From an uncultured Eubacteriales bacterium (GTDB lineage Bacteria; Bacillota; Clostridia; Oscillospirales; Oscillospiraceae), in NCBI GenBank assembly GCA_900545515.1, contig UQZA01000002.1, forward strand, positions 31,345-95,344: a stretch of DNA of 64,000 nucleotides, in the 5' to 3' direction. The translations under genes and the position numbers were made by a program. Below, one piece after another: positions 23,220 through 29,577 of the stretch (the stretch's first letter is position 1; every line of letters starts with the position of its first letter). The notes below the pieces were generated by a model. That model was not told the DNA's origin, did no database searches, and saw only the letters and a list, made by a program, of their open reading frames with translations.

Positions 23220-23984
23220 ATGCTATTTGATACCCATGCCCATCTGGATGACCGCCGGTTTGACCTGGACCGGGAGGAGCTCTTGTCCCGGCTCCCGGAG
23301 CAGGGAATTGGGCTTCTCATGAACCCCGGCTGTGATCTGCCCTCCTCCCAGGCTGCCAGCGCCCTGGCCCGGCGCGTTGACTGGATTTATGCCGCTGTAG
23401 GCTCCCATCCCGATGCGGCGGACCAAATCGGGGATGAGGTTTTGCAGGAATACCGGAATTTGGCGCAGGGAAATTCCAAGGTCAAAGCCATTGGGGAGAT
23501 TGGCTTGGATTATCACTATGAGGATGTACCCCGGCAGCAGCAGATTCTCTGCTTCCGGGAGCAAATGGCTTTGGCCCGAGAGTTGGATCTGCCGGTGATC
23601 ATTCATGAGCGGGAGGCGCATGAGGATGCGCTGCAAGTCCTGGCAGATTTCCCCCAGGTTACGGGGGTGTTTCACTGCTATTCTGGCTCGGCAGAGATGG
23701 CGCGGCGATTGGTGTCTCAGGGCTGGTATATTGGATTTACCGGCGTCATCACATTTAAAAACGCCAGGAAGCTGGTGGAGACTGCCATGGCGATTCCTCT
23801 GGACCGGATGGTCATCGAAACCGACTGCCCCTATATGGCGCCAGAGCCCTTCCGGGGCCGCCGGAATGACCCGGGCTATGTTTACCGCATGTCTGAGAAG
23901 CTGGCAGAGCTGCGGGGAATTTCGCCGGAGGAAATGCAGAAAATTACCATGGAAAACGGAAAACGGCTGTACCGCTTGAACTAG
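23220..23984 (+). CDS. tatD: TatD-family metal-dependent hydrolase/DNase
   Basis: MLFDTHAHLDD, GEIGLDYHY and VIIHEREA. Confidence 0.9.
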   Translation: MLFDTHAHLDDRRFDLDREELLSRLPEQGIGLLMNPGCDLPSSQAASALARRVDWIYAAVGSHPDAADQIGDEVLQEYRNLAQGNSKVKAIGEIGLDYHYEDVPRQQQILCFREQMALARELDLPVIIHEREAHEDALQVLADFPQVTGVFHCYSGSAEMARRLVSQGWYIGFTGVITFKNARKLVETAMAIPLDRMVIETDCPYMAPEPFRGRRNDPGYVYRMSEKLAELRGISPEEMQKITMENGKRLYRLN

Positions 23985-23992
23985 GAGGCTCC

Positions 23993-25426
23993 ATGCTCAC
24001 TCAAAATCAGATTTATACCGCCCTCATCACAGACTACACTGCGCAAGGGCAAGGGGTGGCCCACATAGAGGGCTGTGCCGTTTTTGTACCCAACGCCATT
24101 GCCGGGGAGCTTTGCGACATTCAGATCACCAAGGCTGCTAAAACCTGGGCCGCTGGGCGAGTTTACAAGATCCTGGAGGTTTCCCCGCACCGGGTAAACC
24201 GGGCCTGCCCCCAGAGCAAGCTTTGCGGTGGCTGTGCCTTTCAGCACATGGACTACCAGGAGGAGTGCCGCCTGAAGGCGGAGCGGGTCCGCCAGGCCCT
24301 GAACCGCCTGGGCGGGGAGGCCCTGGAGGAAGTCCCGATTTTACCAGCTCCCGAGATTTTCCACTATCGAAATAAAGCCCAGTATCCGGTTGCACCGGGG
24401 AAGGGGCGGGCTGTGGCAGGCTTTTACCGGGCAGGGACACACCAGGTGGTAGCCTGCCCGCAATGCGGTATTTTGCCGCCGGAGATGGACGCCGTCCGGG
24501 ATGCAGTGGTGGATTACATGAATCAGTACCGGGTAAGCTCCTATGACGAAGGAAGCGGAAAGGGCCTGGTGCGGCATATTTACGTGCGTAAGGGCTGGGT
24601 TTCCGGCCAGCTGCTGGTGTGTCTGGTGGTGAACGGAGACAAGCTTCCCCGGCAGGAGGCTCTACTGGAGCGGCTGCAACAGATCCCGGGCTTTGCTACT
24701 CTGGTGCTGTCCGTCAATCGGAAGCCGGGGAATGGGATTTTGGGGGAGACCTTTTACACCCTGTACGGCCCGGGCTGGATTGAAGATACCTTGTGCGGCC
24801 TCACCTTCCGGCTGTCTCCCCGGTCCTTTTACCAGGTGAACCACGACCAGGCGGAGCGGCTGTATGAGCTGGCCATTGCCGGCGCAGAAATCCAGAAAAC
24901 CGACACCGTCCTGGATCTGTACTGCGGCGTGGGCACCATCACCCTGGCCATGGCGAAAGCCGCAGGCCGGGTCATCGGTGTGGAGGTGGAACCCCAGGCT
25001 GTAGCAGACGCCCGGGACAACGCCCAGCGCAACGGCGTCCAAAACGCTGAATTTTTCTGCGGCGACGCCGGCCAGGCTGCCCGATCCCTCCGGGAACAGG
25101 GCCTCACCCCGGACGTGGTGGTGGTAGACCCACCCAGGAAGGGCCTCAGCCCTGATGTCATCCGGGTCCTGGCCCAAATGTCCCCCCGGAAAATCGCCTA
25201 CATCTCCTGCGACCCGGCCACCCTGGCCAGAGACGTGGCGCTGCTGAAGGAACAGGGCTTCCGGCTTCTGGGAGCAAGAGCTGTGGATATGTTCCCAAGA
25301 TGTGCACATGTGGAGACCGTTGTTTTGCTTTCCAAGGGAGAGGTCGAGTCGAAAAAGGTTCGGGTGGAGTTCTCTTTGGAAGATATGGATATGTCGGATT
25401 TTCAGGACAGCGCAACCTACACATAG
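23993..25426 (+). CDS. rlmD: 23S rRNA (uracil-5-)-methyltransferase RlmD/RumA (TRAM + [4Fe-4S] + SAM MTase)
   Basis: TRAM domain, CPQSKLCGGCAFQH cluster, and DLYCGVGTITLAMA (SAM motif I). Confidence 0.9.
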   Translation: MLTQNQIYTALITDYTAQGQGVAHIEGCAVFVPNAIAGELCDIQITKAAKTWAAGRVYKILEVSPHRVNRACPQSKLCGGCAFQHMDYQEECRLKAERVRQALNRLGGEALEEVPILPAPEIFHYRNKAQYPVAPGKGRAVAGFYRAGTHQVVACPQCGILPPEMDAVRDAVVDYMNQYRVSSYDEGSGKGLVRHIYVRKGWVSGQLLVCLVVNGDKLPRQEALLERLQQIPGFATLVLSVNRKPGNGILGETFYTLYGPGWIEDTLCGLTFRLSPRSFYQVNHDQAERLYELAIAGAEIQKTDTVLDLYCGVGTITLAMAKAAGRVIGVEVEPQAVADARDNAQRNGVQNAEFFCGDAGQAARSLREQGLTPDVVVVDPPRKGLSPDVIRVLAQMSPRKIAYISCDPATLARDVALLKEQGFRLLGARAVDMFPRCAHVETVVLLSKGEVESKKVRVEFSLEDMDMSDFQDSATYT

Positions 25427-25497
25427 ATTAAAGACTACGTGTTGGAGCATGGGGGATTAAAAGTTTCTAACCTGTATATTTCGCATATAAAGCGGAA

Positions 25498-25833
25498 ATG
25501 CGGGATGAAAGAAAACACACACACATGGCTCTTGCTCTTTACAGAGACTATCCCGAGGTAATTAACGATGCAAGAACTATCTTGTACGACTACAAAAGAG
25601 ATTACACCTTTGGACCGGAAAAGCGCCATATTGCCGATTACCATATCGAGGGAGCATACGGTTTGCCCGCGTCTAAAGAGGCATACGACAGATATATCGA
25701 GGGCGGCCATGGGCATACAGTGTTTTTCTTTAATAGGAAAGCACCAATGTTAGGTTGGAAAGCCGAAGAACAGAGGCGATTCTTTCATCTGCGAGGAAAG
25801 CCTATATCAGAGAGAGCAGGAGAACAATCATGA
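25498..25833 (+). CDS. Hypothetical protein in the low-GC islet
   Basis: ORF with no recognisable domain, in AT-richer DNA. Confidence 0.3.
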   Translation: MRDERKHTHMALALYRDYPEVINDARTILYDYKRDYTFGPEKRHIADYHIEGAYGLPASKEAYDRYIEGGHGHTVFFFNRKAPMLGWKAEEQRRFFHLRGKPISERAGEQS

Positions 25834-26315
25834 AACTAATCGAGATGACTCAAGTAAGTGACGAGCTTGCAGAAATGGTTGCCTTGTTTCGGGTAGAACT
25901 GCATTCATATAAAGGGATTGTATCGAAACCAAACATTGAGGCAGGGCGTGAAGAAACGGAAGGATACCTTTCTGCCAACTTCCCGGTGTTTGCTGCCTTT
26001 GTGAATGACGAATACGCAGGCTACGTGGTTTGCCGTATTGATAGCGAGGTGGTGTGGGTGGAATCTATCTTTGTCAAAGAAGAATACCGCCGTCAAGGAG
26101 TAGCCACTGCTCTACACAGCAAAGCGGAGGAAATCGCCGCTTCTTATGGTAACGATACCGTTTACAACTATGTTCACCCCAACAACTACCGCATGATTGA
26201 ATTTCTGAAGAAGCGCGGTTATACGGTTCTGAATTTAATTGAGATCCGCAAGCCGTACAAGGACGAAAAGCTGACGCAAACGATTGTGGTCGGTGAACAT
26301 GAATTTGACTATTGA
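25830..26315 (+). CDS. GNAT-family N-acetyltransferase
   Basis: Motif A: EEYRRQGVATALHSKAEEIAASYG. Start MKLIEM after AGGAGA. Confidence 0.8.
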   Translation: MKLIEMTQVSDELAEMVALFRVELHSYKGIVSKPNIEAGREETEGYLSANFPVFAAFVNDEYAGYVVCRIDSEVVWVESIFVKEEYRRQGVATALHSKAEEIAASYGNDTVYNYVHPNNYRMIEFLKKRGYTVLNLIEIRKPYKDEKLTQTIVVGEHEFDY

Positions 26316-26495
26316 TTGGAGATTCATTTTGGTGAAATAGACACCGCAATTTCTGTTATGCGTGAGGTTGCAGCTTGGGGACGAGAGCGAGGATATCGTG
26401 TATGGCTCGATGAATGGCTAACAAAGGAAGAATTGATTACGCTCGATGCCCAACCAGAGAATTTTTATATTGGAATGGTTGATAGAGAAAATTGA
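26316..26495 (+). pseudogene. Remnant of a second acetyltransferase-like gene (no ATG, ~59 codons)
   Basis: The frame reads LEIHFGEIDTAISVMREVAAWGRERGYRVWLDEWLTKEELITLDAQPENFYIGMVDREN*. It starts directly at the GNAT stop codon. Confidence 0.3.
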
Positions 26496-26878
26496 TTGCA
26501 TGTTTATTCTGTAATGAGCTGATATACCGCTCCTTGGATATCGCAGACCGGGAAGCAGATAGTGCATGCTTTATAGGGCTGATGCTGGAAATCATTTGGG
26601 ACAGCCTGCAGGATGTAACGGTACTTGGTTGCTCCACCGACCAAGATGACGCACCAGTTGCCAAGCTTCTGGCTGTACTTGGGGATGAAACGCTTTCGGC
26701 AACAGAACTGATGGAACGACTAGCATTATCACATAAAGCAACATTCCGAAAAAATTATTTGAACCCGGCCCTGGAAAAGTATCAAATTGAGTGGACTATC
26801 CCAGAGAGACCCAACAGTAGGAACCAGAAATATCGAAAGCGGCATCAAAAGCAACGCAAAGGATATCCTGATTTTTAA
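26492..26878 (+). pseudogene. Truncated ORF retaining only the C-terminal winged-helix tail typical of Fic/DOC or HATPase_c_4 (RecG-like regulator) proteins
   Basis: LSATELMERLALSHKATFRKNYLNPALEKYQIEWTIPERPNSRNQKYRK matches the ...TIPDKPNSRNQKYRLT tail. The N-terminal catalytic portion is missing. Confidence 0.4.
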
Positions 26879-26979
26879 TGTGTAAATGTCCAGGACTCTC
26901 CGTACCCTGCCAGCAAGCATATCACGTCAACAGTATGCAAACAGCATCTTAAATATACAACATAGAAAGAGGTGTCACC

Positions 26980-27462
26980 TTGGAATTCTTTTTCGTATTT
27001 CAGAACAGAACCTTTGATAGAGAACAGCAAGGCGGCTATCTTTGGGCCCCAGACGGATGCCGCGCCCATTGGCAAAAGATGCGCAGCGTAACTTGTGGAG
27101 ATATCATATTTCATAGTTATCAGCGTAAAATCGTTGCCATAAGCATTGCAAAAACTGATTGCTACACTGCCCGGCGACCCACAGAATTAGCCATTGAACA
27201 ACTCTGGGATGATCAGGGTTTACGGGTGGACTGTGACTATTATTTGCTGCCCTCTACCTTGGATACCCATGGCATTATGTCAGACCTGCTGAAATTACAA
27301 CCTAAAAAATATGCGCCGTTTAACAAGTCTGGCAAAGGAAATAGGGGATACTTATTTGATTGCTCAGCTAGCATGGCCAGTTTCCTTCTAAATGCGCTAA
27401 TCCAATCTGACAGTAACCGCGAAGTAATACAACATTTTCAGAAAATTCTCCTAAACCTCTAA
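26980..27462 (+). CDS. PUA-like (EVE-type) domain protein, putative modified-base reader
   Basis: TTG start after GAGGTG. The pattern W..HW..M..V..GDIIFHSYQRKIVAISIAKTDCYTARRP matches the EVE signature W.GVRN..ARN.M..M..GD.V.FYHS...IVGI.EV.SE.YPDP. Confidence 0.45.
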   Translation: MEFFFVFQNRTFDREQQGGYLWAPDGCRAHWQKMRSVTCGDIIFHSYQRKIVAISIAKTDCYTARRPTELAIEQLWDDQGLRVDCDYYLLPSTLDTHGIMSDLLKLQPKKYAPFNKSGKGNRGYLFDCSASMASFLLNALIQSDSNREVIQHFQKILLNL

Positions 27463-27507
27463 TTGTGTCCACATCACCATCAATATCTTACAGAAAGGAT
27501 GTGTAGT

Positions 27508-28431
27508 ATGTCTAAAACCAGAGGGGAGCAGGGTGTCGTCCAAAATATTATTGCAAACTATCAGCAGACAGAGCGTTTCATCGTAGAACAGCTTTATATG
27601 GAGAACGAATTGCATGGCCCCACCACCGGATCTATGCGTGAAAACGTGTGGCGGGGATTATTCGAAATGATTGTACCAAAAAAGTTTGTTATTGAGCATT
27701 CTGTGTTTATTATTGACTCTAACGGAAGAATTTCTCGCGAGGTGGACTTGGCTATTATAGACGAAACGTACACGCCATACATTTTTCGCTATGGAAAGTT
27801 GAAGTTCATCCCAATCGAAGCCGTAGCCGCAGTAGTTGAGTGTAAAAGCAAGGTACTCAGAAAGCGCGAAGAGGTACAACTGAAAATGTGGTGCGAAGGA
27901 ATTAAATCCCTAAAAACGGCAAAGCAATCTATCGCAAGGCTGGCAACAGGCATTTCCACTGGCCCTGCATTGACGCAACAAGGTACACGCCCCATAAGAG
28001 TACTTTGCGCACTAAATCCCAAAATTAGCCCTGAAATACAAGATATGTTCGACTTTGTCCTTACCGCGAGCAAGCGGCCGGCACGCATTAATATCTCAGA
28101 AAATGAAGCAAACAACAGCCTTTTTTCTTGGTATAAGTCCTTGAGCTTCTATAATGAGCCAGAGGCATTGCAGGCACTTTTGGATGACGATAAGCAACAG
28201 GGGTTTCGAGACGCATCCGATATACTAAAGGGAATTTCAATACAATCCTACAAAGTGCATAATCAAGACGGGGAAAATATCTCTCTCCTCTCCTTCAACT
28301 TCCAATTCAATCAGCTCCTGATGCTCATTAACAACCCCATGCTGTTTCCCCACCAGGAGTATGTAAATATGTTTTGCCATTATGCAACTGGAGAAACAGC
28401 CAAAGCGGATTCCCCGATGAAAGGCGATTAA
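27508..28431 (+). CDS. PD-(D/E)xK (Mrr-cat-like) restriction-endonuclease-fold protein
   Basis: Start MSKTRGEQG after AAAGGA. Core is GLFEMIV...IDSNGRISREVDLAIIDE...IPIEAVAAVVECKS (D...E.K). It starts 45 nt after the upstream gene. Confidence 0.5.
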   Translation: MSKTRGEQGVVQNIIANYQQTERFIVEQLYMENELHGPTTGSMRENVWRGLFEMIVPKKFVIEHSVFIIDSNGRISREVDLAIIDETYTPYIFRYGKLKFIPIEAVAAVVECKSKVLRKREEVQLKMWCEGIKSLKTAKQSIARLATGISTGPALTQQGTRPIRVLCALNPKISPEIQDMFDFVLTASKRPARINISENEANNSLFSWYKSLSFYNEPEALQALLDDDKQQGFRDASDILKGISIQSYKVHNQDGENISLLSFNFQFNQLLMLINNPMLFPHQEYVNMFCHYATGETAKADSPMKGD

Positions 28432-28470
28432 CGCTGCTCTGAAAATTTAACAAATTGGTAGCAAAAAGAG

Positions 28471-29577
28471 GTGTTTACCATAGAAACCAACAATCCAAAC
28501 CGCGCCCTCATTGCCATGAGTGGCGGAGTGGATAGCTCTGTAGCGGCCTATCTCATGAAGCGGGCGGGGTATGACTGCGTGGGGGCCACCATGCGGCTGT
28601 ATGAAAATGAGGATGTAACCACACTCCGTACCGGGACCTGCTGTTCCCTGGAGGACGTAGAGGATGCCCGGGCTGTGGCGGCCCGGTTGGGGATGCCCTA
28701 CTACGTGTTCAACTTCAAAGAGGACTTCGGCCGGCAGGTCATGGATCGGTTTGTAGCGGCTTATGAGGGGGGCTGTACACCCAATCCCTGCATTGACTGC
28801 AACCGCTACCTAAAATTCGACCGGATGTACCGTCGGGCCCGGGAATTGGGCATTGGCTACGTGGTGACCGGCCACTATGCCCGGATTCAGCAGAGCGAAA
28901 CTGGCCGCTGGCTCCTGCTGAAGGGGCCGGACCCCCAGAAGGACCAGAGCTATGTGCTCTACGCCATGACCCAGGAGCAGTTGGCCCACACCCAATTCCC
29001 CCTGGGGACCCTTCGCAAAGAGGAAGTCCGGGCCATTGCCGAGGCCCAGGGCTTTGTCAACGCCAAAAAGCACGATAGTCAGGATATTTGCTTTGTCCCT
29101 GACGGAGATTACGCCGCCTTCATTCGCCGCCGGACCGGCAGGACCTATCCCGAGGGCAACTTTGTGGACCCGGAGGGCCATATTCTGGGACGGCACAAAG
29201 GCATCATCCATTACACCATTGGCCAGCGCCGCGGCCTGGGCGTCTCCGGCGGACGGCCCCTGTATGTCAAGGAAATTCAGCCAGAGGACAACACCGTGGT
29301 ACTGGCAGACGACTGTAGCCTGTATGAGCGCACCGCAATCGCCACAGACTTCAACTGGATTGCCCTGGAAGCCCCCGCTTCCCCCATCCGAGTCCAAGCC
29401 CGGGCCCGCTATCACCAGCCGGAGCAGGATGCCACCGCCACGGTCCTACCCGATGGACGGGTCCAAGTCACCTTCGACCACCCCCAACGGGCCCTGACTA
29501 AGGGACAAGCTATTGTGTTATATCAGGGGGACGTGGTTGTAGGCGGCGGCACCATTGTGGAAACCTGCAAAAGTTAA
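28471..29577 (+). CDS. mnmA: tRNA-specific 2-thiouridylase MnmA
   Basis: PP-loop AMSGGVDSSVAAYL, with C..C..NRYLKFD. The GTG start immediately follows an in-frame stop. Confidence 0.9.
   Translation: MFTIETNNPNRALIAMSGGVDSSVAAYLMKRAGYDCVGATMRLYENEDVTTLRTGTCCSLEDVEDARAVAARLGMPYYVFNFKEDFGRQVMDRFVAAYEGGCTPNPCIDCNRYLKFDRMYRRARELGIGYVVTGHYARIQQSETGRWLLLKGPDPQKDQSYVLYAMTQEQLAHTQFPLGTLRKEEVRAIAEAQGFVNAKKHDSQDICFVPDGDYAAFIRRRTGRTYPEGNFVDPEGHILGRHKGIIHYTIGQRRGLGVSGGRPLYVKEIQPEDNTVVLADDCSLYERTAIATDFNWIALEAPASPIRVQARARYHQPEQDATATVLPDGRVQVTFDHPQRALTKGQAIVLYQGDVVVGGGTIVETCKS

What the first reader, a model, noticed from the sequence alone, without database searches (positions are those of the whole stretch)
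26980..28431. Split two-gene module: EVE/PUA-like reader plus PD-(D/E)xK (Mrr-cat-like) nuclease, a candidate modification-dependent (type IV-like) restriction or defence system
Two co-oriented genes 45 nt apart lie in the AT-richer islet. Gene A (160 aa, TTG start) carries the EVE signature W..HW..M..V..GDIIFHSYQRKIVAISIAKTDCYTA, and EVE domains bind modified cytosines or adenines. Gene B (307 aa) has a restriction-endonuclease core (FEMIV...REVDLAIIDE...AVAAVVECKS). EVE domains are usually fused to nucleases, and a split operon version is not a named system. The location in a low-GC islet beside gene remnants is typical of mobile defence cargo.
Basis: partly seen in the sequence, partly recalled or inferred. 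Interest (0 to 1): 0.8.

Follow-up and report, generated by a model that had tools for sequence, protein, structure and literature searches.

The report
Stand-alone EVE reader beside solo NucC nuclease
Two real, adjacent genes in a low-GC islet encode a modified-cytosine reader without a nuclease and a CRISPR-type, signal-gated DNA nuclease without its CRISPR system, but comparison with relatives suggests they are neighbours rather than a dedicated two-gene restriction system.

Summary
Gene A (26980-27462, 160 aa, TTG) and gene B (27508-28431, 307 aa) are intact, co-oriented and 45 nt apart, in a 44% GC islet within a 58-60% GC genome. Both are under purifying selection.

The domain calls are half right. 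A is a stand-alone EVE domain plus linker helices of the VcaM4I type (phmmer E 1.4e-20, Foldseek TM 0.80), and all six base-pocket residues are conserved. B is a PD-(D/E)xK nuclease, but it belongs to the NucC/DUF6602 family, not Mrr_cat. Its relatives sit inside type III CRISPR-Cas loci in at least 76 of 80 species. B keeps 68 of the 71 residues conserved in those relatives.

The proposed two-gene type IV system is weakly supported. A and B are adjacent only in one gut Clostridiales genus (3 lineages). Sister species keep B at the same site, directly upstream of mnmA, without A. Other genera keep A directly downstream of a RumA-type RNA m5U methyltransferase without B. None of the 80 B loci contains A.

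Most likely these are two independent accessory genes in a rumA-mnmA variable islet: a solo nuclease still gated by cyclic oligoadenylate, and a nuclease-less 5mC/5hmC reader. A real EVE-NucC partnership is not excluded (about 0.12).

The parts
26980..27462 (+). Gene A: stand-alone EVE (PUA-fold) domain plus C-terminal linker helices, VcaM4I type; no catalytic domain
   Evidence: ORF. phmmer against VcaM4I 6yex residues 1-153, E 1.4e-20. Model pLDDT 92.4. Foldseek 6yex TMq 0.80, E 1.7e-15, followed by EVE/YTH structures. Pocket residues T11, E15, W22, P24, W76 and Y124 are invariant in the family. dN/dS 0.08-0.28.
27508..28431 (+). Gene B: solo NucC-family (DUF6602) PD-(D/E)xK nuclease of the clade associated with type III CRISPR
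   Evidence: Pfam DUF6602 1.2e-20. PADLOC NucC 3e-83. PDB NucC E 1e-12. hhalign to CBASS NucC, probability 98.4%. Foldseek matches NucC structures only. 68 of 71 family-conserved columns are kept. dN/dS 0.10-0.13.
27463..27507 (+). 45-nt A-B spacer with the Shine-Dalgarno of B (AAAGGA at 27494-27499); no terminator, so co-transcription is likely
   Evidence: Sequence. No terminator-like site on the + strand between the genes.
25427..28470 (.). Low-GC accessory islet between the RumA-type methyltransferase gene and mnmA
   Evidence: Composition. Gene content varies between species of the same genus.
26492..26878 (+). Fic remnant; only the Fic-like_C part remains, matching residues 221-337 of the intact 337-aa homologue
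   Evidence: Pfam PF21247 5.8e-24. tblastn of the L010 Fic protein hits only 26525-26851.
25755..26315 (+). GNAT acetyltransferase (islet cargo)
   Evidence: Pfam Acetyltransf_1 9.6e-17. 70% identical to the GNAT of L021.
23993..25426 (+). RumA/RlmD-type RNA m5U methyltransferase; left border of the islet and the conserved upstream neighbour of the A family
   Evidence: Its homologues in related loci carry TRAM + tRNA_U5-meth_tr; the window protein itself was not scanned against Pfam. 82-88% identical in sister species. Lies upstream of A in 8 of 10 A lineages.
28471..29577 (+). mnmA (tRNA 2-thiouridylase); right border of the islet, always directly downstream of B in this genus
   Evidence: Homologues carry tRNA_Me_trans domains. 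91-97% identical in sister species. B and mnmA overlap by 4 nt in L017 and L022.

Best explanation
The locus is a variable, low-GC accessory islet between a RumA-type rRNA/tRNA m5U methyltransferase gene and mnmA, in an uncultured human-gut Clostridiales genus. It holds two defence-type genes that are probably co-transcribed but are not an obligate pair. Gene B is a NucC-family nuclease that was captured once from a type III CRISPR-Cas locus. By homology it should be a trimer that stays inactive until a cyclic oligoadenylate (cA3-like) binds its allosteric pocket, after which two trimers form a hexamer that cuts double-stranded DNA without sequence specificity. Because it keeps the family's conserved residues, it is probably still ligand-gated. 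The signal would have to come from a Cas10 or CD-NTase encoded elsewhere in the genome. Gene A is an EVE domain plus linker with no nuclease. It probably flips and binds 5-methyl- or 5-hydroxymethyl-cytosine, as VcaM4I does. Its conserved genomic neighbour is the methyltransferase, not a nuclease. Shown here: domain identities, conserved residues, synteny patterns, selection and composition. Inferred: ligand gating and oligomer switching of B, the base specificity of A, co-transcription, and independence of function.
For: B family context: 71 of 80 species-level B loci have type III cas genes within 6 kb by tblastn. Five more were shown by HMM, with representative operons. The catalytic D80/E111/K113 and the pocket equivalents K59 (NucC R53) and Y88 (NucC Y81) are conserved. 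68 of the 71 columns that are at least 90% conserved in CRISPR-linked members are kept in all six orphans. The orphans form one clade. Independence: no A homologue was found in the 80 B loci. B occurs alone at the same mnmA-upstream site in L018-20, L021/22 and L023, whose flanks are 82-97% identical to the window; the slot upstream of B holds Fic, CN_hydrolase or a RAYT-like transposase instead. A occurs alone directly after a RumA-type methyltransferase in six other lineages. None of 150 EVE-family representatives is fused to a B-like domain; the main fusion partner is HNH. Identity of A. Both genes are under purifying selection.
Against: A and B are 45 nt apart, co-oriented, each has its own Shine-Dalgarno, and no terminator lies between them. 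The three A-linked B alleles form a subclade, so A and B are inherited as one haplotype. A more distant A homologue (45% identity, L008) is followed after 19 nt by a 145-aa protein with a PD...EFK motif and a PADLOC PDC-S41 match, which shows that this kind of EVE can pair with a separate nuclease. No Cas10, CD-NTase or CRISPR array lies in the 64-kb window, and the rest of the genome could not be searched, so the proposed trans signal source is unverified. The NucC latch residues H136/Y141 are not kept (L155/T160), and T226 could not be mapped, so the ligand could differ from cA3.
Confidence: 0.55

Rival explanations
1. One reading: A and B form a split, modification-dependent (type IV-like) restriction or abortive-infection system. 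A recognises 5mC/5hmC in incoming DNA and recruits or licenses the NucC-type nuclease B, so that it replaces the cyclic-oligoadenylate signal.
For: Tight operon-like arrangement. A has the full VcaM4I pocket plus the linker helices, which regulate the nuclease in VcaM4I. The A-B haplotype is shared by three lineages. There is no cyclase in the window. L008 shows a separate case of a stand-alone A-like EVE next to a small PD-(D/E)xK-like protein. Stand-alone EVE proteins associated with nuclease systems are known (PMC7641849).
Against: Co-occurrence is confined to one genus. It is absent from 80 B loci and from the seven A lineages of at least 51% identity outside the genus. Sister species keep B without A. 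B retains the residues conserved in CRISPR-linked, ligand-gated relatives, with no change specific to the A-linked alleles. No EVE-NucC fusion exists among 150 representatives.
Confidence: 0.12
2. B is a self-contained single-gene defence nuclease, like the DUF6602 protein Damona. It is triggered by infection without any cyclase, and A is unrelated to it.
For: A single-gene DUF6602 cassette (Damona) is reported as an anti-phage system (bioRxiv 10.1101/2024.07.02.601686). B is maintained without cas genes across a genus, with deep allelic divergence typical of defence genes: dS is saturated while the flanks show dS 0.2-0.9. A second orphan occurs in Blautia (L058).
Against: B is nested within the CRISPR-linked clade and keeps its conserved residues, including K59, Y88 and the conserved loop residues R144, Q157, T160 and P162. 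Its relation to the Damona sequence was not tested.
Confidence: 0.18
3. A is functionally tied to the RumA-type methyltransferase, for example as a reader of the writer's product or of another RNA or DNA 5-methylpyrimidine. It sits next to B only because the islet grew around it.
For: The methyltransferase lies upstream of A in 8 of 10 lineages of at least 51% identity. The gap is 0-118 nt in six of them, including a 4-nt overlap, and the hosts range from 27% to 68% GC. In L115 an A homologue lies next to another rRNA methyltransferase, of the RlmA type.
Against: The invariant E15, which in VcaM4I accepts a hydrogen bond from the cytosine N4 amino group, argues for cytosine rather than m5U. 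A is much more AT-rich than the methyltransferase in high-GC hosts (GC3 46.5 against 89.6 in L005). rumA is a known integration site for mobile elements in Firmicutes (PMC4320837, PMC9652813), so the synteny may reflect a hotspot. A mobile element sits exactly between the methyltransferase and A in L001.
Confidence: 0.15

Closest known systems
VcaM4I (EVE-HNH modification-dependent restriction endonuclease, PDB 6YEX; PMC7897488)
   Same: A aligns to residues 1-153, the EVE domain plus the inter-domain linker helix (E 1.4e-20, TMq 0.80). The residues that sandwich and read the flipped 5mC/5hmC are conserved: T11, E15, W22, P24, W82 (A W76) and Y130 (A Y124).
   Different: A has no HNH or any other catalytic domain. 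The intercalating wedge Q128 is R122 in A and T in most of its family. The usual neighbour of the A family is a RumA-type methyltransferase.
NucC (cA3-activated endonuclease of CBASS type III and type III CRISPR-Cas; PDB 6P7O, 6Q1H, 6UXF; bioRxiv 10.1101/694703)
   Same: B has the same fold and the same core motif (NucC IDx30EAK, B VDx30ECK). Equivalents of the pocket residues R53 (K59) and Y81 (Y88) are present, as is a conserved loop at the gate-loop position. The B family is embedded in type III CRISPR loci.
   Different: B is about 65 aa longer, and its C-terminal half is not alignable by sequence. The latch residues H136/Y141 are not kept. TM-scores are only 0.42-0.58. In this genus there are no cyclase or cas genes nearby.
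Damona (single-gene DUF6602 anti-phage cassette from Vibrio chromosomal integrons; bioRxiv 10.1101/2024.07.02.601686)
   Same: A DUF6602 nuclease acting without an adjacent cyclase.
   Different: B clearly belongs to the CRISPR-linked subfamily.
Stand-alone EVE proteins associated with type I RM or SWI2/SNF2-nuclease systems (Bell et al. 2020, PMC7641849)
   Same: The concept is the same: an EVE reader encoded separately from the nuclease.
   Different: Those partnerships recur across many genomes, mostly archaeal. The A-B pairing here is confined to one genus, and its partner comes from a ligand-gated effector family.

Membership tests
EVE domain (PUA superfamily), VcaM4I-type | PUA-like beta-barrel fold with significant similarity to solved EVE domains | tested here: met
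   Foldseek: 6yex E 1.7e-15, TMq 0.80; then PH1033, 2eve and YTH structures. phmmer E 1.4e-20.
EVE domain (PUA superfamily), VcaM4I-type | Hydrophobic pocket and Watson-Crick-edge readers for a flipped 5mC/5hmC (P24, W82, Y130, T11, E15, W22) | tested here: met
   All six are conserved in A (P24, W76, Y124, T11, E15, W22) and invariant in 16 family members.
EVE domain (PUA superfamily), VcaM4I-type | Actual binding of modified DNA or RNA | not testable with these tools
   Needs EMSA or a structure.
   A is 160 aa and ends after the linker helices. No Pfam, PADLOC or NCBIfam nuclease hit.
Two-gene (split) reader-nuclease system | Conserved co-occurrence of the two genes across lineages | tested here: not met
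   The pair occurs in 3 lineages of one genus only. It is absent from 80 B loci and from all 36 A-domain lineages outside the genus, seven of which are at least 51% identical to A. B alone and A alone occupy syntenic sites.
Mrr_cat (PF04471) nuclease | Match to the Mrr_cat profile | tested here: not met
   The Pfam scan at E<=1 gives only DUF6602 and a weak DUF1829 hit.
NucC family | PD-(D/E)xK core with the IDx30EAK-type motif and NucC fold | tested here: met
   D80, E111 and K113 align to D73, E104 and K106. Foldseek top 14 hits are all NucC, E 1e-11 to 1e-8. PADLOC NucC 3e-83.
NucC family | cA3 pocket (R53, Y81, T226/V227) and gate-loop latch (H136, Y141) | tested here: inconclusive
   R53 maps to K59 and Y81 to Y88, both invariant. 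H136 maps to L155 and Y141 to T160, so the latch is not kept. The C-terminal T226 region was not aligned by hhalign. The loop has its own invariant residues R144, Q157, T160 and P162.
NucC family | Encoded next to its signal synthase (CD-NTase or Cas10) | tested here: not met
   No Cas or CD-NTase among 60 window ORFs. No hits with Cas queries. No repeat array. The rest of the genome was not searchable.
NucC family | Trimer-to-hexamer activation by a cyclic trinucleotide | not testable with these tools
   Needs biochemistry (SEC-MALS, nuclease assay with cA3, cA4 and cA6).
Type III CRISPR-Cas ancillary effector | Family members located inside type III cas operons | tested here: met
   Met for the family: at least 76 of 80 species loci. 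The window copy itself is an orphan.
Damona-like single-gene DUF6602 defence | DUF6602 domain acting alone | not tested
   The DUF6602 domain is present. No Damona sequence was available, so its relation and function are untested.

The most novel reading that the evidence does not exclude
In this genus a CRISPR-type NucC effector has been rewired to a protein sensor. The stand-alone EVE reader A detects 5mC/5hmC (or hypermodified) invader DNA and licenses the assembly or targeting of the NucC-like nuclease B without any cyclic-oligonucleotide signal. That would be a new class of modification-dependent restriction or abortive-infection system, built from a second-messenger effector.
Probability: 0.12. 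Interest if true: 0.8.

Novelty: new variant of a known kind. Interest (0 to 1): 0.42.

Why it matters
If the ordinary reading is right, the locus shows two things. First, a type III CRISPR ancillary nuclease can be detached from its cas operon, fixed at a housekeeping locus (upstream of mnmA) and maintained for a long time, with deep allelic diversity. That bears on how orphan second-messenger effectors persist and what signal they respond to. Second, it defines a small family of nuclease-less VcaM4I-type EVE readers that sit almost invariably behind a RumA-type RNA m5U methyltransferase gene, in Clostridia ranging from 27% to 68% GC. That pattern is either a writer-reader link or a footprint of the rumA integration hotspot. 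If the pairing is functional, it would be a new way to trigger a NucC-type nuclease.

Tried and rejected
- Mrr_cat assignment for B: rejected. There is no Pfam hit, and the NucC/DUF6602 matches are strong.
- A as a recently truncated EVE-HNH: rejected. The stand-alone family has a stable length of 151-178 aa and is under purifying selection, and only 45 nt follow the stop codon of A.
- B as a decaying relic: rejected. dN/dS is about 0.1 and 68 of 71 conserved columns are kept.
- Cyclase, cas genes or CRISPR array in the window: none found.
- A or B on phages: A has no phage or viral-contig hit. On plasmids, relatives of A are all annotated as HNH endonucleases, and relatives of B are DUF6602 or CBASS NucC proteins.
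- The 158-aa ORF upstream of B in L023 as an alternative sensor: rejected. It resembles a REP-associated tyrosine transposase (weak match, E 0.048).
- Sequence mapping of the NucC C-terminal pocket residue T226 onto B: failed with phmmer, hmmsearch and hhalign. Only an unverified manual ungapped alignment suggests N276/P277.
- An EVE-NucC fusion among 150 EVE-family representatives: none.
- Discordance between housekeeping flanks and the B tree as evidence for horizontal transfer of an A-B cassette: weak. The flanks of L010, L018 and L023 are all about 83% identical to the window at nucleotide level.
Full report
**Observation.** The two ORFs exist exactly as described. Gene A is 26980..27462 on the + strand (160 aa, TTG start). 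The ORF of gene B runs 27463..28431, and its ATG at 27508 gives 307 aa, leaving a 45-nt spacer. Both starts have Shine-Dalgarno sequences: GAAAGAGGTG before the TTG of A and AAAGGA before the ATG of B. No terminator-like site lies between the genes on the + strand. The genes lie in a low-GC stretch, 42-45% GC over 25.5-28.5 kb against 56-62% around it. GC3 is 43.5 for A and 48.1 for B, against about 72 for the flanking genes. The left flank is a RumA/RlmD-type methyltransferase gene (23993..25426) and the right flank is mnmA (28471..29577). The islet also holds a GNAT gene and a Fic remnant that keeps only residues 221-337 of a 337-aa protein intact in relatives. Both A and B are under purifying selection. 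dN/dS is 0.08-0.28 for A and 0.10-0.13 for B, similar to the housekeeping flanks.

**Gene A.** Pfam, NCBIfam, PADLOC and PHROGs give no hit. phmmer against PDB sequences matches residues 1-153 of VcaM4I, the EVE-HNH modification-dependent restriction enzyme 6YEX, at E 1.4e-20. A model built on 16 homologues has pLDDT 92.4. Its best fold match is VcaM4I (TMq 0.80, E 1.7e-15), followed by classical EVE and YTH domains. The VcaM4I paper identifies P24, W82 and Y130 as the sandwich for the flipped 5mC/5hmC. T11, E15 and the W22 carbonyl read the Watson-Crick edge, and Q128 is the intercalating wedge (PMC7897488). In A the corresponding residues are P24, W76, Y124, T11, E15 and W22, and all are invariant in the family alignment. 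The wedge position is R122 in A and T in most members. A also contains the two helices (130-158) that correspond to the VcaM4I inter-domain linker, but it has no nuclease domain. An exhaustive search finds 1427 clusters with this domain. Among the best 150, 31 are stand-alone and 126 are fused, and the dominant fusion partner is HNH in either order. On plasmids all relatives are annotated as HNH endonucleases. By residue conservation the likely ligand is a 5-modified cytosine, which is an inference.

**Gene B.** B matches Pfam DUF6602 (1.2e-20) and the PADLOC NucC model over its full length (3e-83). There is no Mrr_cat hit. PDB NucC chains match residues 35-120 (E 1e-12 to 1e-9). hhalign against a CBASS NucC from a Thauera plasmid, which has the same numbering as E. 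coli NucC, aligns B 35-205 to NucC 29-192 with 98.4% probability. A model of pLDDT 82.5 matches only NucC structures with significance (E 1e-11, TM 0.42-0.58). The NucC functional residues are taken from bioRxiv 10.1101/694703. The catalytic D73, E104 and K106 map to D80, E111 and K113. The cA3-binding R53 and Y81 map to K59 and Y88. The gate-loop latch residues H136 and Y141 map to L155 and T160, so they are not kept. The loop (low pLDDT at 142-156) carries its own invariant residues R144, Q157, T160 and P162. T226 could not be mapped. B is therefore a PD-(D/E)xK nuclease, but of the ligand-gated NucC family.

**Usual partners of B.** Eighty species-level genome loci encode B homologues of 36-67% identity. 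Their gene order is stereotyped: B-Cas10-Csm3-Csm4, B-Cmr1-Cas10b-Cmr3, Cmr4-Cmr5-Cmr6-B, or Cas6-B-Cas10d-Cas5(III-D)-Cas7(III-D). tblastn with nine Cas proteins flags 71 of the 80 loci. HMM scans add L083, L087, L091, L094 and L097. L095 and L101 share the gene-size architecture of L094, which is an inference. Only L023, from the window's genus, and L058, from a Blautia where B lies next to a pyruvate phosphate dikinase gene, lack cas genes. None of the 80 loci encodes an A homologue. The window has no Cas10, CD-NTase or repeat array.

**The window's genus.** Related contigs share flanks that are 82-97% identical at protein level and about 83% at nucleotide level. All of them carry B directly upstream of mnmA, with a 4-nt overlap in L017 and L022. 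The slot upstream of B varies:
- A in the window, L010/11 and L017
- an intact Fic gene in L018-20
- CN_hydrolase in L021/22
- a RAYT-like transposase in L023

. The six orphan B sequences form one clade in a neighbour-joining tree, and the A-linked ones form a subclade. All six keep 68 of the 71 columns that are at least 90% conserved among the 79 other homologues, nearly all of them CRISPR-linked. B alleles are far older than the species splits. dS is saturated against L017, L018, L021 and L023, while dS is 0.74-0.76 for the methyltransferase gene and 0.22-0.94 for mnmA. Such deep allelic divergence is typical of defence loci.

**Usual partners of A.** The close family is small: 17 clusters, all stand-alone apart from one with an N-terminal extension. 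There are ten lineages of at least 51% identity. Eight have a TRAM + tRNA_U5-meth_tr (RumA-type) gene upstream. In six of these the gap is 0-118 nt, including a 4-nt overlap in L014. In the window and L010 the islet separates the two genes by 1.5-2.4 kb. The remaining two lineages lack enough upstream sequence to tell. The hosts range from 27% to 68% GC, and A is consistently more AT-rich than the methyltransferase gene in the high-GC hosts. B is adjacent only in the three lineages of the window's genus. More distant A homologues occur in other settings:
- PolA-A-RlmA-type methyltransferase (L115)
- HTH-A-145-aa protein with a PD...EFK motif and a PDC-S41 match-SLFN-like helicase (L008)
- EVE-HNH fusions clustered with YjbR and SRA proteins (L119)

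. rumA is a documented integration site for conjugative transposons, ICEs and prophages in Firmicutes (PMC4320837, PMC9652813). In L001 a serine-recombinase/Mob element sits exactly between the methyltransferase position and A. The synteny may therefore be a hotspot footprint rather than an operon. I could not decide between these two readings.

**Interpretation.** The domain-level reading is largely right, but the system-level reading is not well supported. The conserved partner of A is a methyltransferase gene or integration hotspot. The conserved partner of B is a type III CRISPR effector complex. Each gene persists without the other at syntenic positions. The most economical model has two independent parts:
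- B is a solo NucC-type effector that is still gated by a cyclic oligoadenylate made elsewhere in the genome. That source is unverified.
- A is a nuclease-less 5mC/5hmC reader of unknown role.

I give this model 0.55. Three rivals remain:
- a genuine A-B modification-dependent system (0.12). It is favoured by the tight spacing, the shared haplotype, the absence of a cyclase in 64 kb and the L008 precedent.
- an autonomous single-gene nuclease like the DUF6602 protein Damona (0.18).
- a functional link between A and the methyltransferase (0.15). This rival concerns only the role of A, so it can hold together with any of the models for B, and the four figures are not meant to sum to 1.

Stand-alone EVE proteins that partner with separately encoded nucleases have already been described (PMC7641849).

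**Limits.** The host genome beyond the window could not be searched for Cas10 or CD-NTase. No multimer modelling was available. The C-terminal half of B could not be mapped onto NucC by sequence. Neighbour genes in the fetched loci were called with a crude longest-ORF method, although the key neighbours were confirmed with profile searches.

Noticed in passing
window 23993-25426 and 26980-27462; L005 4621-6465; L012 144-1995; L014 618-2482; L114 3598-5438; L168 966-2836; L113; L144: The stand-alone EVE family of gene A lies directly downstream of a RumA-type (TRAM + tRNA_U5-meth_tr) RNA m5U methyltransferase gene. This holds in 8 of 10 lineages, with gaps of 0-118 nt in six, in hosts of 27-68% GC. 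A stays much more AT-rich than the methyltransferase in high-GC hosts (GC3 46.5 against 89.6 in L005). The cause is either a writer-reader operon or a footprint of the rumA integration hotspot.
   Followed up: partly
window 27508-28431 compared with L017, L018, L021, L023: B alleles at the conserved mnmA-upstream site are far more diverged than the flanks. dS is saturated and amino-acid identity is 55-74%, against 91-97% for MnmA, yet the family-conserved residues are retained. This suggests old allele classes or repeated replacement at a fixed locus.
   Followed up: partly
L008 1457-4123: An HTH gene is followed by an A-like EVE (45% identity). After 19 nt comes a 145-aa protein with an RPD...EFKAK (PD-ExK) motif, a PADLOC PDC-S41 match (3e-17) and a weak HSDR_N hit, and then an SLFN-g3-type helicase. 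This is an independent candidate for a split EVE + nuclease + helicase system.
   Followed up: partly
L001 1-3950 compared with L168 966-2836: A Mob_Pre/serine-recombinase element is inserted exactly between the RumA-type methyltransferase position and the A homologue. The recombinase ORF overlaps the 5' end of the annotated A ORF by about 30 nt.
   Followed up: no
window 26316-26878: The Fic gene is a remnant. Only the C-terminal third (residues 221-337 of 337) is left, while L010 and L018 keep an intact 337-aa Fic + Fic-like_C gene at the same place.
   Followed up: yes
L023 5485-5961: In the closest named MAG (UMGS730), a 158-aa ORF resembling a REP-associated tyrosine transposase (weak PDB match, E 0.048) occupies the slot immediately upstream of B, where A sits in the window.
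   Followed up: partly
L058 5998-6846: A second orphan B homologue (46% identity) occurs in an uncultured Blautia, between a pyruvate phosphate dikinase gene and an unannotated 471-aa ORF. No cas genes lie within 6 kb.
   Followed up: partly
L119 5001-7192; L136 5001-6898: Fused relatives of A sit in multi-reader clusters. One is EVE-HNH followed by YjbR and an SRA/DUF3427-like protein. Another is a 324-aa EVE fusion next to a UzuA-like GIY-YIG protein.
   Followed up: no
L017 3243-3246; L022 4051-4054: The stop codon of B overlaps the start codon of mnmA by 4 nt in two sister lineages, which suggests that B is translated as part of the mnmA operon.
   Followed up: no
window, 60 ORFs scanned (for example TatD 23220-23984): The PADLOC hits elsewhere in the window (DndA/SspA, dCTPase, mad2, QatD) each come from a single ORF. 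They probably reflect housekeeping look-alikes such as cysteine desulfurase, the RumA-type methyltransferase and TatD rather than defence systems. The tool did not report which ORF gave which hit, so this was not confirmed.
   Followed up: no
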